Assembly (NCBI RefSeq): GCF_009914755.1
Contig: NC_060933.1
Source of the DNA: the human T2T-CHM13v2.0 reference genome, Homo sapiens
Reading direction: 5' to 3' (one strand)
DNA length: 64,000 nt
Made by a program: the position numbers and the translations under genes. Every line of letters starts with the position of its first letter. Position 1 is the stretch's first letter. A model generated the notes under the pieces. It saw only the letters and a list, made by a program, of their open reading frames with translations, did not search any database and was not told the DNA's origin. Shown piece by piece: positions 8,597 through 25,865 of this stretch.

Positions 8597-8689
8597 TACA
8601 GAGCAGGTGGTCCGTTTTGTGTTTTTCATGCATTAGGTCATGGGTCCTTTCTGCCACAATGCTTTCAGGTGTTTGCTGTACTTCTCCAT
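8597..8689 (-). pseudogene. GC pseudo-exon: coiled-coil hinge/dimerisation segment
   Basis: AG/GT(AAGT) boundaries. Reads MEKYSKHLK(A)IVAERTHDLMHEKHKTDHLLC with a 1-nt deletion (93 nt instead of 94), matching the ME.Y..LE..V.ERT..L..EK.KTD.LL hinge. Phase 1 joins the 170-255 exon. Confidence 0.93.
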
Positions 8690-8968
8690 CTAAGCATTAA
8701 TCACAAAGGGAAAATACTTCATAGGAACACGGTGCTCCCTGTGTATTAATTTCTGACTCTTTGAAAGCTCCTAAAAGGCAGGGGAATTTCAGTAGGGGGC
8801 TACTGGGCTTGTAATTATTATCCGCTTGGGATCTAATAACCAAGCCAGCTGAGTGCTCCCTGTGAGGGGGTGCACCACTGAGCCTTGCCCTGAATGCTAT
8901 GGTAAATCCATACCTGAACAAGTGAGCCTCAATCAGCTACTTGTGTGCAGTTCAGGAAGAAGGCTTAC

Positions 8969-9087
8969 CAAGGGCATCATCATGTATGGCACACTATCTT
9001 TGTTGGGATTTATTTTGTTTAAAGCTTCTTTATTTGCTGAAACACAGGTCTTTGGTATGAGCTGTTTTTCCTGCACCTCCTAATAAG
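8969..9087 (-). pseudogene. GC pseudo-exon: kinase-homology subdomain XI
   Basis: Reads LIRRCRKNSSYQRPVFQQIKKL(L)NKINPNKDSVPYMMMPL with a 1-nt deletion. Donor GTAAGC is intact; acceptor is mutated to AC (9088-9089). Confidence 0.88.
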
Positions 9088-9448
9088 GTGCAGTGTTTAA
9101 AAGTAGCAATCAAACACTGATTTGTCAATATTCTAAATAGAGTTGCAGAATCATCAATCTGTAAATCATCTAGTCCCAGGTTTCTCTGCCTCTTTTGACC
9201 TTAGTCCCATCAGCCAAGAAAATTTGGTTGAGCTTTACTTTCAGTAGCTTGAACTCCAAAATCAATGTGTACAATTTTTGTTCATTTTACAAATACAGAA
9301 CTTGATGATAAAATCCAGTGTGCTTTTCCAGATCACATATGATGCATGCTCTTATGGGGGACTGTTCCCAATTCAGATATGCTACTTGTGCTGCCCCTTG
9401 GACTCACTAATGTAGTAACCATTTTTTTATTTTAAATATAAGAAAACT

Positions 9449-9760
9449 GGCCAGGAGCAGTGGCTCACACCTGTAATCCCAACACTTTGGGAGACCAAGG
9501 CAGGAGGACTGCTTGAACTCAGGAGTTTGAGACCAGCCTGAGGAACATAGTGAGACCCTGTCTCTACAAAAAAAATTTTAAAGATTAACTGGGCATGATG
9601 GTGCACACCTGTGGTCCCACTTACTCTGGAGAATGAAGTGGGAGGAAAGCTAGAGCCTGGGAGGTCAAGGCTGCTGTGAGCTGTGATCAGGCCACTGCAC
9701 TCCAGACTGGAAGACAGACTGAGACCCTGTCTCAAAAAGTATAAAAATAAATAAACAAAG
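9449..9760 (+). mobile_element. AluJ
   Basis: Diverged Alu dimer with TSD AGAAAACT. Confidence 0.9.
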
Positions 9761-9865
9761 ACGAGAAAACTAAGGCCCAGAGATGCTAGAATGCCAGAAG
9801 CCTGGGATTTGAGCTCATGAGGGTAATTAATGCCATGGCTGGAGCTAGATTAAAAGGCTTTGTAA

Positions 9866-10120
9866 GGACGAGGTGGGAAGATTGCTTGAACTCAGGAGTT
9901 CAAGACCAGGCTGGGTAACATGGTGAGACCCTGTCTCCATCAAAAATACAAAAATTAGCCGGGCATCATGGCACACACCTGTGGTCCCAGCTACTTGGGA
10001 AGCTGAGGTGGGAGGATCTCTTGAGCCCAGGAGACATAGGTTGCAGTGAACCAAGGTTGCACCACTGCACTCCAGCCGAGGTGACAGAGTGAGACCCCAT
10101 CTCAAAAAAAAAAAAAAAAA
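9866..10120 (+). mobile_element. 5'-truncated Alu
   Basis: Alu lacking its 5' end, with poly-A and TSD AAAAGGCTTTGTAA. Confidence 0.9.
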
Positions 10121-10763
10121 AAGGCTTTGTAACACCACTGGCTGGTCCTTTCCACTCCACCACTCTCCCTTTCAAAGTTACAAATCTCATTTTATGTTTT
10201 AGTAAATTAATTCCTGTCAATTAGACAAATCATAATAAGCCTAAATGAGTGTCTAAATCTCCAAGTGACGGGTGTTACGGCACTACAGCTGTGTCTGCGA
10301 TGGGGCATGCTGCATATACAAGTGTGCTTGCTTTGTTTCATCGTGGGTCACTTTGTCATGTTTTGATGGCACCAGAGCTCTCTGGGAATGCTGGGCTCAC
10401 GTCTCAGGATTCTGCCATGGCTCCTCTCTCTGCTCTTCTCTCTATAAACATTCTCCCTGAGAAGGTTACATCTTCATCCACATCTGCATTATAGCCCTAC
10501 AGTGCTGGTTCCCAAATTTCTCCCTCCATCTGAACCTCTACCCCAAGCTCCTAACACATATTCCGATTGCCTGCTGAATCATCTGCACCTGGAGGTAGAT
10601 TCCAAAAAGCCAGAAAGACACCAAGAAATTGTTACTTAAGGCAACAGCTTACTCCTGTCGATATATCTCTTTCCAAGACATAAACCATGAGCTTGTGGTT
10701 AGACAATGGGATGGCTTCTGAGTCAGCACCCATCAAATAACCTTTCCCTCCTTACTTCCTGCC

Positions 10764-24139: not shown

Positions 24140-24450
24140 AAGGTTGGTGTTGCAATAATACATATGAAGATTTGGAGTTTGGACCAACTACAGGCTCAAT
24201 ATGAGCCAGCAACATGAGAGCATTGCCAGAGATGGCAGCATGGGTGGAGGCATGTTGTCCAAGGCTAGGGAAGCACGATCTGCTCTGTACTGGCAGGATT
24301 GTGGCAGGAGTGTTGGGTTTCATTCCAGATGCATGCTTGGAGAGAACTGTTAGTCAACAGCTAGAGAGCAGTGCACTCGATAAAGGGCTTTTGAATCTAT
24401 GTTTCATGGAGAAAAACAAGGATGTTCAAACTGAAGAGAAAACTTTCAGG
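24140..24450 (+). mobile_element. L3/CR1 LINE fragment
   Basis: Degenerate CR1 ORF2 C-terminal sequence (…CTCAATATGAGCCAGCAACATGA…). Confidence 0.55.
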
Positions 24451-24936
24451 GAATCCAGATACCCACCCTTCTTGGTAATACCTGTTGCCCCCAAGGTGAG
24501 CTTCCCAGATTCTTAGCAACCACTAACTTATCTAATGAGGTAACCCACAGAAGCTCTCCAGTGCATTTACCTGCCTGCCACTATCCTGGTGGGCCTGCTG
24601 CACCCAGATGTCAAGCTGGTAGGCTGGGATCAATTAGCAATTGTAATTAAAACTGAATGTAATTAACCACATAACAGTGAGATGTTCTTGATTAATTTCC
24701 TGAAGTTAAGAGACTACTATAATGTTCTGACAGAAGACAATAAATAATTCAAAAACTCCTAAATTTGGTTATGCATTTGAGTTTCATCCAAATAATTGTT
24801 CACCAAGCCATTGTTACTGAATAAAAATGCATTGGCCCATACACATAGGTTAACAATCTTAATTAATGATCTTGTGGCCCACTACCAAAAGGCTTGAATG
24901 CCCCTGCTGACTTTAAGTGCTTAGAAAATAGATAGC

Positions 24937-25046
24937 TGATGGCTGTACAACCATGTAAATGTGCTTAACACCACTGAACTGTGGACTTAAAAACGGCTAA
25001 AATGGTAAATGTTACGTCATGTATATTTTACCACAAAAAAAAAAAA
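24937..25046 (+). mobile_element. L1M 3' end
   Basis: CCACTGAACTGTGGACTTAAAA…ATATTTTACCACAAAAAA terminus. Confidence 0.8.
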
Positions 25047-25052
25047 TGTTCA

Positions 25053-25185
25053 GGCCAAGAACAATAGTTCATATCTGAATCCCAGCACTTTGGGAGGTCG
25101 GGGCCGGAGGACTGCTTGAGGTCAGGAGCTCGAGACCAGCCTGGGCAATAGAGTGACACCTTGTCTCTAACTTAGAAAAATAAAC
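25053..25185 (+). mobile_element. FLAM Alu monomer
   Basis: Left arm only. Confidence 0.8.
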
Positions 25186-25780
25186 AAAGTTTTTAAAAAT
25201 AGCACAGTGCAGTGGTATGAGTACAAGCTTTTGGGTCAAGCAGAGAGGTACTCAAATTATGACTGGGCTACTTATCGGCTCTGTGACCTCAAGCAAGTTG
25301 CTGAATCTCTCTGAATCCATTTCTTCATCTGCAGAATGGGAGTAATAATGCCTACCAGTCTAATTAGGTGGGTAGCCAGAAGTAAGGAATACAACTGATA
25401 CATAGAAAGCATCCAGTGGGTAACATGGCAGCCGAGGATAGGTCAGACTCAGCATAAAGACCAGTGGGGAGAAGTTACAGGAAGACCTACTAGCGTTCAT
25501 GATAAGGAAAACTTGCTAACTTAGAGCAGTCTAACAATAGAAGAGGCACCTCTACAGAAAGACCATCGCACTGCAAAACCATAGCCCCACAAACCACAGC
25601 AATGGGGAAACAATGACCCACGAAGCAGAGGTTCACAAACAATAAATCACTCCCCAACATTGAGGCTCGTAATCCATTCCACAGGATGAAGGAGCCACCT
25701 GTGAGCAGCAAACAATCTCAGGCTCAGGCTTCCCACAGGGGTGGTTCCTCAAGGCCACCAGCCCCGTGTATTCTGTTTAC

Positions 25781-25865
25781 TTTACTTGCAGCACTTCCCT
25801 ATGGATCACTTTGGAGAAAGTAAATGTCTTCTTCTTGATCCTGTTTATGGCCACAGTCCTCATAA
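25781..25865 (-). pseudogene. GC pseudo-exon: kinase-homology subdomains II-III (VAIK region)
   Basis: TTACAG acceptor and GTAAAC donor. Reads Y(..)RTVAINRIKKKTFTFSKVIHREVLQV(K) with a small deletion after Tyr. Phase 2 joins ELDHPN. Confidence 0.88.

What the first reader, a model, noticed from the sequence alone, without database searches (positions are those of the whole stretch)
8597..25865. Intron positions and sequence place it outside the GC-A to GC-G subfamilies
Seen: introns fall before ELDHPN, after NWGF, at KIS|DFG, at DVYS, before MEKY and at LLC-S|TLLK. From my knowledge of NPR1/NPR2/GUCY2C/GUCY2D, their introns instead fall after GSLx, after DIVK/DLIK and after LP(H/P). The peptides also differ from GC-D (GUCY2EP) and GC-G (GUCY2GP) as I recall them. 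They resemble uncharacterised 'natriuretic peptide receptor-like' predictions from fish and sauropsids (recollection only, not searched). Inference: an additional vertebrate membrane GC, an orphan cGMP signalling receptor lost in the lineage leading to this genome.
Basis: partly seen in the sequence, partly recalled or inferred. Interest (0 to 1): 0.8.

Follow-up and report, generated by a model that had tools for sequence, protein, structure and literature searches.

The report
Dead eighth membrane guanylyl cyclase gene
This stretch of human chromosome 9 is the decayed remains of a cell-surface, cGMP-making receptor gene that sharks, fish, frogs, reptiles, birds, platypus and opossum still keep intact, and it belongs to none of the seven receptor types known from mammals.

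Summary
On the minus strand lies an intron-containing, heavily broken membrane guanylyl cyclase (GC) gene. It is much larger than the finding's range. About 20 colinear exon relics run from window +81619 to -26679 (about 108 kb), covering ectodomain, membrane span, kinase-homology domain (KHD), hinge and cyclase domain. Against platypus it carries about 12 in-frame stops and 15 frameshifts.

It is not GC-A to GC-G. The seven human paralogues sit at other loci. An ML tree puts it with platypus, opossum and koala, inside a 100/100 clade separate from all seven. AU tests reject a grouping with NPR1/NPR2 (p 7e-41) and any place outside that clade (p 2e-7). Ten of its 13 introns from the KHD to the C-terminus are at positions not used by the human paralogues I could map there (NPR1, NPR2, GUCY2D throughout; the other four only in part); the last three are shared.

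Intact relatives (about 850 aa) lack the ANF-receptor ectodomain. They have a 210-residue, 14-cysteine, predicted beta-sandwich domain instead. None of the best 120 hits to opossum is eutherian. I found no description in ten literature searches.

The parts
1..64000 (-). The whole window lies inside the pseudogene. Exon relics continue to window +81619 (ectodomain exons at 81619-81480 and 72572-72433). They also continue to window -26679 (cyclase exons at -1362..-1505, -7011..-7166, -18745..-18840, -24539..-24631 and -26521..-26679).
   Evidence: tblastn and frameshift-aware alignment to gecko and platypus proteins on chr9:32830001-32954000. Whole-genome search.
54722..54829 (-). Ectodomain exon relic (CGPWIPDDGQIFTHT...NWTSKV). 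It has 3 in-frame stops and one more at the segment edge. An Alu-like sequence follows directly.
43613..43722 (-). Ectodomain exon relic (VVLVHxGVTSLIAHIR.GK.Q.ALEA). It has a stop and a frameshift.
40273..40420 (-). Membrane-proximal cysteine cluster (VCGNGLCE...) plus the transmembrane segment (FPICLVCIAFAITVL). One frameshift.
   Evidence: alignment
37146..37229 (-). Juxtamembrane exon relic (WFQYQKQKMF*GKRWI..IKQ).
25781..25911 (-). Exon E7, start of the kinase-homology domain (RTVAINRIKKKTFTFSKVIHREVLQVK). The donor is gtaaac, phase 2. Only 25863-25781 is securely coding.
21327..21470 (-). Exon E8 (ELDHPNICRF...NWGF). 48 codons with no stop or frameshift. Canonical ag...gt splice sites.
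19833..19952 (-). Exon E9 (RFSFA.DVA*GMAYLHQCKMYRGKLKS...VCKIS). It has 2 stops and 2 frameshifts. The otherwise invariant H of the HG.LKS motif is changed to R.
18228..18368 (-). Exon E10 ((D)FGLQLYRK*...APGDVY). It has a stop and frameshifts. Both splice sites are decayed.
14004..14050 (-). Exon E11 (AAVILLEIATSSDPVS). Acceptor tttgcag, donor gtaaga.
10764..10868 (-). Exon E12 (KEERYSEEHSLCLPLELLITGKPENHYPCPSEYAE). No stop or frameshift.
8969..9087 (-). Exon E13 (LIRRCRKNSSYQRPVFQQIKK / LNKINPNKDSVPYMMMPL). One frameshift. Donor gtaagc.
8597..8689 (-). Exon E14, the hinge (MEKYSKHL / IVAERTHDLMHEKHKTDHLLC). One 1-nt deletion. Donor gtaagt, phase 1.
170..255 (-). Exon E15, start of the cyclase domain ((S)TLLKQVVDDLRQGQPA / AQRYLSVSIFS). 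One frameshift. Acceptor aatag, donor cag|gtaaat.

Best explanation
The locus is a unitary pseudogene: unprocessed, keeping its introns, with no working copy elsewhere in the genome. The gene it derives from encodes a single-pass receptor guanylyl cyclase of a subfamily distinct from GC-A to GC-G. In humans it cannot make a protein.

In species that keep it, the protein is about 850 aa and is built as follows:
- a signal peptide;
- a roughly 210-residue ectodomain with 14 conserved cysteines, predicted to be a beta-sandwich followed by a membrane-proximal CGDGxCE..C..CP.DCG.C cluster, and not an ANF-receptor domain;
- one membrane span;
- a kinase-homology domain that, like those of other receptor GCs, lacks the catalytic Asp (HG.LKS.NC);
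- a coiled-coil hinge;
- a class III cyclase domain with every catalytic motif of NPR1/NPR2.

Inferred mechanism: an unknown extracellular signal acts on the ectodomain of a homodimer, relieves inhibition by the kinase-homology domain, and raises cGMP synthesis.

What is shown: gene identity, breakage, phylogenetic place, domain make-up and intron map. What is inferred: enzyme activity, dimerisation, the existence of a ligand, and the timing of the loss (early in placental mammals).
For: Identity and extent
- The ELDHPN..NWGF exon matches PDB NPR1 residues 552-603 at E 4e-9.
- It is 69-75% identical to proteins of fish, lungfish, coelacanth, gecko and bird. Those proteins carry kinase-homology and cyclase Pfam domains; none of the 41 rows lists ANF_receptor.
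- About 20 colinear exon relics span about 108 kb.

Breakage
- 12 stops, 15 frameshifts and 2 codon deletions over 20 exon segments against platypus.
- 55 of 188 columns that are invariant in at least 17 of 19 intact vertebrate members are changed in human.
- The catalytic motifs are ruined: YNMETMGNA and MP*CCLLGDAVVAKSK.

Not GC-A to GC-G
- The seven paralogues are at other loci.
- IQ-TREE, 47 rows x 496 columns: the family clade has support 100/100 and stem length 0.66. Human relic + platypus + opossum + koala has 100/98.
- AU tests: p 7e-41 and p 2e-7.
- Ten of 13 introns are at their own positions.

Ectodomain
- ANF_receptor is found in 3 of 3 controls and in 0 of 8 family members.
- No family reaches Pfam's cut-off for any of the 16 ectodomains; three families are each matched by one ectodomain at E 0.017-0.2.
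- hhalign against an NPR-type profile gives probability 0.05%.
- AlphaFold2 model: pLDDT 82, pTM 0.75, mostly beta.

Single copy
- The ectodomain matches only chr9 in the human genome.
- The second vertebrate paralogue finds no further locus.

Conservation and distribution
- Platypus-shark identity is 80.2% and opossum-medaka 76.8% over 424 columns.
- Intact proteins occur from chimaera and sharks to monotremes and marsupials.
- 0 of the best 120 hits to opossum is eutherian.
Against: - Synteny of the intact orthologues with TMEM215 and APTX could not be checked, because no other animal genome was at hand. Orthology therefore rests on the tree alone.
- The first coding exon (signal peptide and WHDLDN..DCG) was not found up to window +94000 or genome-wide.
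- Intron positions of the family were read only from the decayed human copy. Four junctions have mutated splice sites, and the phase of the FFS|DIVGF junction is unresolved.
- One search lists only 120 of 566 hits and only proteins of 465 aa or more. A eutherian with an intact gene is unlikely but not excluded.
- No experiment shows that any family member makes cGMP or binds a ligand.
Confidence: 0.92

Rival explanations
1. It is a decayed duplicate of NPR2 (3 Mb away on the same chromosome arm) or of NPR1, that is, a member of the natriuretic peptide receptor subfamily.
For: - NPR1 is the best solved-structure match of the intact relatives: 482 bits over residues 249-814.
- NCBI's pipeline names the relatives 'atrial natriuretic peptide receptor 1/2-like'.
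- NPR2 lies at chr9:35.8 Mb.
- Two family introns lie only 5 and 13 nt from NPR introns.
Against: - The AU test rejects a clade of the relic with NPR1/NPR2: delta lnL 192, p 7e-41.
- ANF_receptor is absent from 8 of 8 family members and present in 3 of 3 controls.
- Ten of 13 introns differ in position or phase.
- The relic nests among monotreme and marsupial orthologues.
Confidence: 0.01
2. The gene was lost only recently, in primates or in the human lineage, and is intact in many other placental mammals.
For: - Only primate fragments are named among close hits: human, macaque and tamarin.
- The tamarin model P0003 reads through the two positions where human exon E9 has stops, so some lesions are young.
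- One search shows only the best 120 of 566 hits.
Against: - No eutherian protein appears among the best 120 hits to opossum. Those hits reach down to 68% identity, and an intact eutherian orthologue should score near 80-90%.
- 29% of otherwise invariant codons are changed (55 of 188) and there are about 12 stops. With neutral rates that I recall but did not compute here, this fits roughly 0.12-0.15 changes per site, which is most of the time since the placental ancestor.
- Tamarin already shares H-to-R in the invariant HG.LKS motif.
- Three unnamed metagenome ORFs (P0034, P0035, P0037) share the human intron flank and carry deletions or changes at invariant exon positions.
Confidence: 0.08
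3. The locus still encodes a product: a truncated protein such as Celera's hCG1808876, or a regulatory RNA.
For: - A 191-aa protein was predicted here in human (P0001). Macaque and tamarin have models too.
- Seven of 20 exon segments are free of stops and frameshifts.
Against: - Only the last 49 residues of P0001 are GC-derived. The rest is read from intronic ORFs at 25490-25717 and 22526-22750.
- RefSeq annotates no gene in the window (hub note).
- The human terminal branch is 0.59, against 0.03-0.05 in the other mammals.
Confidence: 0.02

Closest known systems
GC-A / GC-B (NPR1, NPR2), natriuretic peptide receptor guanylyl cyclases
   Same: - Single-pass receptor with kinase-homology domain, coiled-coil hinge and class III cyclase domain.
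- Identical catalytic motifs: FSDIVGFT, KVETIGDAYMVVSG, MPRYCLFGDTVNTASRMES.
- About 44-46% identity over the intracellular part in tblastn against the NPR1 and NPR2 loci; NPR1 is the best solved-structure match at 482 bits.
- The last three introns are shared in position and phase.
   Different: - No ANF-receptor (periplasmic-binding-protein type) ectodomain. A 210-residue, 14-cysteine, predicted beta-sandwich domain stands in its place.
- About 850 aa rather than about 1050 aa.
- Ten introns are at other positions.
- It forms a separate clade with invertebrate members.
GUCY2EP (GC-D) and GUCY2GP (GC-G), the two known human membrane-GC pseudogenes
   Same: The same kind of event: an intron-containing receptor GC gene that is intact in other mammals and broken in human.
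   Different: - Different loci: chr11:76.6 Mb and chr10:113.2 Mb, against chr9:32.9 Mb.
- Different clades: GUCY2EP groups with GUCY2D/F at 100/100, and GUCY2GP with an ANF-receptor-bearing representative at 100/100.
- Both are annotated, whereas RefSeq has no gene in this window.
- The chr9 gene is missing from the eutherian proteins I could see. From recall, not checked here: GC-D and GC-G are working genes in rodents.
Invertebrate receptor GCs with unconventional ectodomains
   Same: Mollusc proteins (Gigantopelta P0032, Argopecten P0036) and unnamed representatives (P0043, P0046, P0047, P0051, P0054) share this ectodomain and form one 100/100 clade with the vertebrate family.
   Different: None of them carries a name or a described function in the sources I could search. 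Whether a Drosophila or nematode GC belongs to the clade was not tested.

Membership tests
Receptor (membrane) guanylyl cyclases | Class III cyclase catalytic domain with the guanylyl-type motifs | tested here: met
   PF00211 at E 1e-64 to 1e-69 in the intact relatives. Motifs are identical to NPR1/NPR2. The human relics of these exons lie at window 255..-26679.
Receptor (membrane) guanylyl cyclases | Kinase-homology domain, coiled-coil hinge and a single membrane span | tested here: met
   PF07714 and the C-terminal part of PF07701 (HNOBA) in all relatives scanned. A hydrophobic span follows the cysteine cluster. HG.LKS.NC replaces the catalytic HRD.
GC-A/GC-B (NPR1/NPR2) subfamily | ANF_receptor (PF01094) ligand-binding ectodomain | tested here: not met
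   0 of 8 family members against 3 of 3 controls at E 1e-39 to 1e-76. No family above Pfam's cut-off for any of 16 ectodomains. hhalign probability 0.05%.
GC-A/GC-B (NPR1/NPR2) subfamily | Groups with NPR1/NPR2 in a tree | tested here: not met
   AU test p 7e-41.
GC-A/GC-B (NPR1/NPR2) subfamily | Shared exon-intron plan | tested here: not met
   Three of 13 introns are shared and ten are not. The family's positions were read from the human relic only.
GC-D (GUCY2EP), GC-E/F (GUCY2D/F), GC-G (GUCY2GP), GC-C (GUCY2C) | Same locus, or the same clade, as one of these | tested here: not met
   All loci are elsewhere. The relic is excluded from the set holding all seven, AU p 2e-7. GUCY2C and GUCY2F were represented by only 233 and 180 residues, and GUCY2C sits on a long branch.
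Unitary pseudogene | Disabling lesions in a gene that keeps its introns | tested here: met
   12 stops and 15 frameshifts. Introns of 0.3 to 17.6 kb with recognisable gt/ag at most junctions.
Unitary pseudogene | No functional copy of the same family in the genome | tested here: met
   Whole-genome searches with gecko, opossum-ectodomain and ray-paralogue queries find only chr9 for this family. The searches used a strict first filter, so weak relics could be missed.
Unitary pseudogene | Intact orthologue at the syntenic place in other species | not testable with these tools
   Intact orthologues exist. No other animal genome was available to check their neighbours.

The most novel reading that the evidence does not exclude
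The relic marks an eighth receptor guanylyl cyclase subfamily, as old as bilaterians, with its own beta-sandwich, seven-disulfide ectodomain. The subfamily has never been characterised. It is hidden in the databases under 'natriuretic peptide receptor-like' names. It is among the most conserved of the receptor GCs (shark to platypus 80%). It was discarded once, at the origin of placental mammals. If so, non-placental vertebrates run a cGMP signalling axis with an unknown ligand that placental mammals either gave up or replaced.
Probability: 0.5. Interest if true: 0.8.

Novelty: new variant of a known kind. Interest (0 to 1): 0.68.

Why it matters
Reviews count seven membrane guanylyl cyclases in mammals (PMC1435932, passages) and seven characterised subtypes (PMC10061024, abstract). 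This locus shows that the ancestor of mammals had an eighth, with a different sensing domain. Monotremes, marsupials and all other jawed-vertebrate groups sampled keep it under strong constraint.

The finding gives an unannotated human pseudogene a name and an origin. It corrects misleading automatic names for several hundred database proteins: 389 carry this ectodomain, and in the 120 rows listed the usual name is 'natriuretic peptide receptor 1/2(-like)'. It also makes a concrete question testable in zebrafish, medaka, Xenopus, chicken or opossum: what activates this receptor, in which tissue, and what changed in placental mammals so that it could be lost.

Tried and rejected
I used tblastn with fetched relatives instead.
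- ESM Atlas with the ectodomain: no usable hit.
- Profile of the ectodomain against PDB sequences: one hit, at E 0.98.
- Fold searches with the ectodomain model. Foldseek gave 2 matches at E <= 0.001, with TM-scores up to 0.34 in the rows shown. VIA-align gave a best Z of 8.5 (95 residues, rmsd 2.5), and the tool states a background of 7-8. All hits are generic Ig-like or E-set beta-sandwiches such as complement MG domains, SoxYZ, carbohydrate-binding modules and LPMO-like domains. No specific relative can be named. I considered a copper-binding, LPMO-like reading but did not pursue it. It rests only on weak Foldseek rows.
- Exon 1: not found within +94000 or genome-wide.
- A relic of the second vertebrate paralogue in human: none found.
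- The automated junction finder failed on the decayed relic and gave intronic read-through. The junctions were read by hand.
- Literature: ten searches found no paper naming this family or this pseudogene. The terms tried included hCG1808876, OlGC8, GC-H, gucy2h/i/j and npr1b.
- Kuraku & Kuratani 2011 (PMC3296468): 'cyclase', 'natriuretic' and 'NPR' occur 0 times in the main text. Its supplementary gene lists could not be opened, so the gene may be listed there.
- The medaka protein P0285 is named 'membrane guanylyl cyclase'. That suggests a curated cDNA record, and from memory possibly one of the OlGC series. I could not check this, because those papers are not in the library.
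Full report
WHAT IS THERE

The 87-aa minus-strand open frame at 21323-21586 holds RELDHPNICRF...NWGF. This peptide matches the kinase-homology domain of human NPR1 (PDB 9bcv, residues 552-603, E 4.4e-9).

A search of 5.8 billion proteins returned 41 of 41 candidates.
- Closest were a Celera human fragment (hCG1808876, 98%), a macaque model (94%) and a tamarin model (87%).
- Next, at 69-75%, came proteins of about 750-870 aa from teleosts, lungfish, coelacanth, a gecko and a bird. 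They are named 'atrial natriuretic peptide receptor 1/2(-like)'.
- Their precomputed Pfam domains are kinase, HNOBA and cyclase. ANF_receptor is listed for none of them.

tblastn with four of these proteins found colinear minus-strand pieces from 54844 down to 206 in the window. The human genome turned out to be searchable. After I fetched 30 kb on each side, the full series ran from window +81619 to -26679. It consists of:
- four ectodomain exons;
- the cysteine cluster with the membrane span;
- a juxtamembrane exon;
- seven kinase-homology exons;
- the hinge exon;
- six cyclase exons, down to a C-terminal ...NLIPGVI.

The finding's range of 8597-25865 covers only exons E7 to E14.

IT IS BROKEN

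I ran a frameshift-aware alignment of 20 exon segments to the platypus protein.
- It gives 12 in-frame stops, 15 frameshifts and 2 codon deletions. Two of the stops sit at segment edges and may be intronic.
- Seven segments are clean: E7, E8, E11, E12, E17, E19 and E20.

Over 424 kinase-homology-to-cyclase columns:
- human is 63.7% identical to platypus;
- platypus-opossum is 89.2%, platypus-shark 80.2% and opossum-medaka 76.8%;
- 55 of 188 columns that are invariant in at least 17 of 19 intact vertebrate members are changed in human.

The cyclase motifs are destroyed (YNMETMGNA; MP*CCLLGDAVVAKSK). In the tree, the human terminal branch is 0.59, against 0.03-0.05 for the other mammals.

IT IS NOT ONE OF THE SEVEN

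The genome search places the paralogues elsewhere:
- NPR1 at chr1:152.8 Mb
- NPR2 at chr9:35.8 Mb
- GUCY2C at chr12:14.5 Mb
- GUCY2D at chr17:7.9 Mb
- GUCY2F at chrX:107.8 Mb
- GUCY2EP at chr11:76.6 Mb
- GUCY2GP at chr10:113.2 Mb

I stitched conceptual proteins from these loci inside scripts. NPR1 came out at 1062 residues. GUCY2C and GUCY2F were only partial, at 233 and 180 residues. I aligned them with 19 intact vertebrate family members, 9 invertebrate proteins that share the ectodomain (7 in the reduced careful tree), and 45 other representatives from the all-against-library search.

FastTree (81 rows), quick IQ-TREE and careful IQ-TREE (47 rows x 496 columns, LG+C20+F+G4) all agree.
- The relic sits with platypus, opossum and koala (100/98).
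- That group lies inside a vertebrate clade (100/99).
- The vertebrate clade lies inside a clade with the invertebrate ectodomain-sharers (100/100, stem 0.66).
- NPR1/NPR2 (99/97), GUCY2D/F/EP (100/100) and GUCY2GP with its representative (100/100) all lie outside.

AU tests reject the relic with NPR1/NPR2 (delta lnL 192, p 7e-41). They also reject the relic anywhere outside the family (delta lnL 82, p 2e-7).

INTRONS

For the intact human genes, a splice-junction optimiser gave clean gt-ag junctions. For the relic I read the junctions by hand.

Family introns, in gecko P0030 numbering:
- R351, phase 2: QV(R)|ELDHPN
- R399, phase 2: NWGF(R)|FSF
- D440, phase 1: KIS(D)|FG
- S487, phase 1: DVY(S)|FA
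- 502|503, phase 0: DPV(P)|KEE
- 537|538: EYAE|LIRR, both splice sites decayed
- 577|578, phase 0: MMM.L|MEKY
- S609, phase 1: LLY(S)|MLPK
- about 638/639: FFS|DIVGF, phase unresolved
- Y685, phase 1: GDA(Y)|MVV
- G736, phase 1
- A769, phase 1
- 799|800, phase 0

NPR1 and NPR2 instead use these positions:
- 323|324;
- 349|350, also used by GUCY2D;
- 384|385 (GSLQ|D), which GUCY2D does not use;
- 408|409 (DIVK|G; DLIK|G in GUCY2D);
- LSPK, phase 1;
- RKFN, phase 2;
- K613, phase 2 (LP(H/P/R)|), used in all seven paralogues;
- 654|655, NPR1/NPR2 only;
- 677|678 (DVYK|VET), also used by GUCY2D, GUCY2C and GUCY2EP.

They then share G736, A769 and 799|800 with the family.

So the last three introns are common to both sets and the ten upstream ones are not. 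Two of those ten lie only 5 and 13 nt from canonical introns, but in a different phase. Two were missed inside the stated range. The recalled 'after GSLx' holds for NPR1/2 but not for GUCY2D.

THE ECTODOMAIN

Pfam finds ANF_receptor in 3 of 3 controls: NPR-type P0095, GC-G-type P0104 and sensory-type P0186 (E 1e-39 to 1e-76). It finds it in 0 of 8 family members.

An alignment of 16 ectodomains (A1) shows 14 conserved cysteine columns and a frequent NWT sequon. Conserved motifs include WHDLDN..Y.CWP, NCC.HH.N.HSCP, CGPWIPDDG.IFTHT and a membrane-proximal CGDG.CE..E.C..CP.DCG.CP.

- A profile-profile comparison with NPR-type receptors finds nothing (probability 0.05%).
- A profile search of PDB sequences also finds nothing (E 0.98).
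- AlphaFold2 on A1 gives a confident, mostly beta model (pLDDT 82.2, pTM 0.75).
- Fold searches return only generic Ig-like or E-set sandwiches near background: Foldseek TM-scores up to 0.34 in the rows shown, and VIA best Z 8.5 over 95 residues, rmsd 2.5.

I read the ectodomain as a beta-sandwich sensing domain with no nameable relative.

DISTRIBUTION AND TIMING

A search with the ectodomain alone gave 389 proteins at E <= 0.001 among 613 candidates. The 120 listed cover squamates, tuatara, turtles, crocodilians, birds, caecilian and frogs, coelacanth, lungfish, sturgeon, gar, teleosts, sharks, rays, chimaera, platypus, opossum and koala.

With opossum as the query, there were 566 hits at E <= 1e-50 and the best 120 were listed.
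- The only mammals are opossum, koala (91%), platypus (84%) and Gracilinanus (98%, partial).
- Turtles (82%) come next.
- No eutherian is listed down to 68% identity.

Three unnamed metagenome ORFs (P0034, P0035, P0037) share the human intron flank of exon E8. They carry a deletion or changes at invariant exon positions, as expected of relics in other mammals. Their species are unknown.

The degree of decay points to a long neutral history: 29% of invariant codons changed, and about 12 stops in about 720 aligned codons. Using neutral rates from memory, I estimate roughly 0.12-0.15 changes per site. That is most of the time since the placental ancestor. This is an inference, not a computation on aligned genomes.

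HOW IT WORKS

In humans it does nothing as a gene.

In other animals the architecture and the untouched catalytic motifs predict a homodimeric receptor that makes cGMP. It would be gated through a pseudokinase domain that keeps the VAIK lysine but has HG.LKS in place of HRD, as in other receptor GCs. The ligand or stimulus is unknown.

PRIOR KNOWLEDGE

RefSeq has no gene in the window (hub note). Ten full-text searches found no description.
- Fitzpatrick et al. [quoted passage not shown]
- Gesemann & Neuhauss 2023 (PMC10061024; abstract and passages seen) say that seven subtypes have been characterised.
- Their 2020 paper (PMC7674705; passages seen) deals only with visual and olfactory GCs.
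- A 2026 Drosophila paper (PMC13267572; passages seen) lists the zebrafish receptor GCs, including npr1b. Whether npr1b is this family I could not tell.
- The main text of Kuraku & Kuratani 2011 on genes lost in early mammals does not mention cyclases.
- The curated-looking name of medaka P0285 hints at an older cDNA paper outside the library. I therefore put the chance that the family is truly undescribed at about one half.

VERDICT

This is an unannotated unitary pseudogene of an eighth, ancient receptor guanylyl cyclase subfamily with its own ectodomain. Monotremes and marsupials keep the gene. Among the eutherian proteins I could see it is absent.

Noticed in passing
proteins P0031 (coelacanth) and P0281 (ray) versus P0234 and P0267: Coelacanth and a stingray each have two family members. 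P0031 + P0281 form a 100/98 clade that is sister to the main vertebrate clade. This suggests a second ancient paralogue that most lineages lost. No relic of it was found in the human genome.
   Followed up: partly
window 22526-22750 and 25490-25717, minus strand: Celera's predicted human protein hCG1808876 (P0001, 191 aa) is mostly read from two intronic open frames. Only its last 49 residues come from a real GC exon.
   Followed up: yes
proteins listed: In the rows listed, family members are usually named 'atrial natriuretic peptide receptor 1/2(-like)' or 'ANPRA/ANPRB', although they have no ANF-receptor domain. The names are misleading; one search counts 389 proteins with this ectodomain.
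   Followed up: yes
window 19833-19952 (exon E9) versus tamarin model P0003: The tamarin model reads E and W where human has TAA and TGA, and it keeps the frame where human is shifted. Those lesions may therefore post-date the split from New World monkeys. Tamarin already shares the H-to-R change in the invariant HG.LKS motif.
   Followed up: partly
unnamed ORFs P0034, P0035, P0037: Three metagenome-derived open frames contain this exon together with the same upstream intron flank as in human. They carry a 5-residue deletion or changes at invariant positions. They are probably relic copies from other mammals present in those samples.
   Followed up: partly
window 63377-63876: Tandem units of 24-144 bases rich in CTGATTGGT (CCAAT-box-like) motifs lie under the RefSeq enhancer feature at 63082-64279. 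They sit in the intron between two ectodomain exons and look like a retroelement LTR array.
   Followed up: no
window 57965-58111 (+), 57394-57793 and 48910-49216: The only Rfam match is Metazoa_SRP at 75 bits, in a repeat-masked stretch, and is most likely an Alu. Next to it is a 35-base unit repeated 11.4 times at 97% identity. A 34-base AT/AC-rich unit repeated 9 times lies at 48910-49216.
   Followed up: no
window 54524-54721: An Alu-like sequence begins directly after the ectodomain exon that ends at 54722. The 3' splice region of that exon has therefore been disrupted by an insertion.
   Followed up: no
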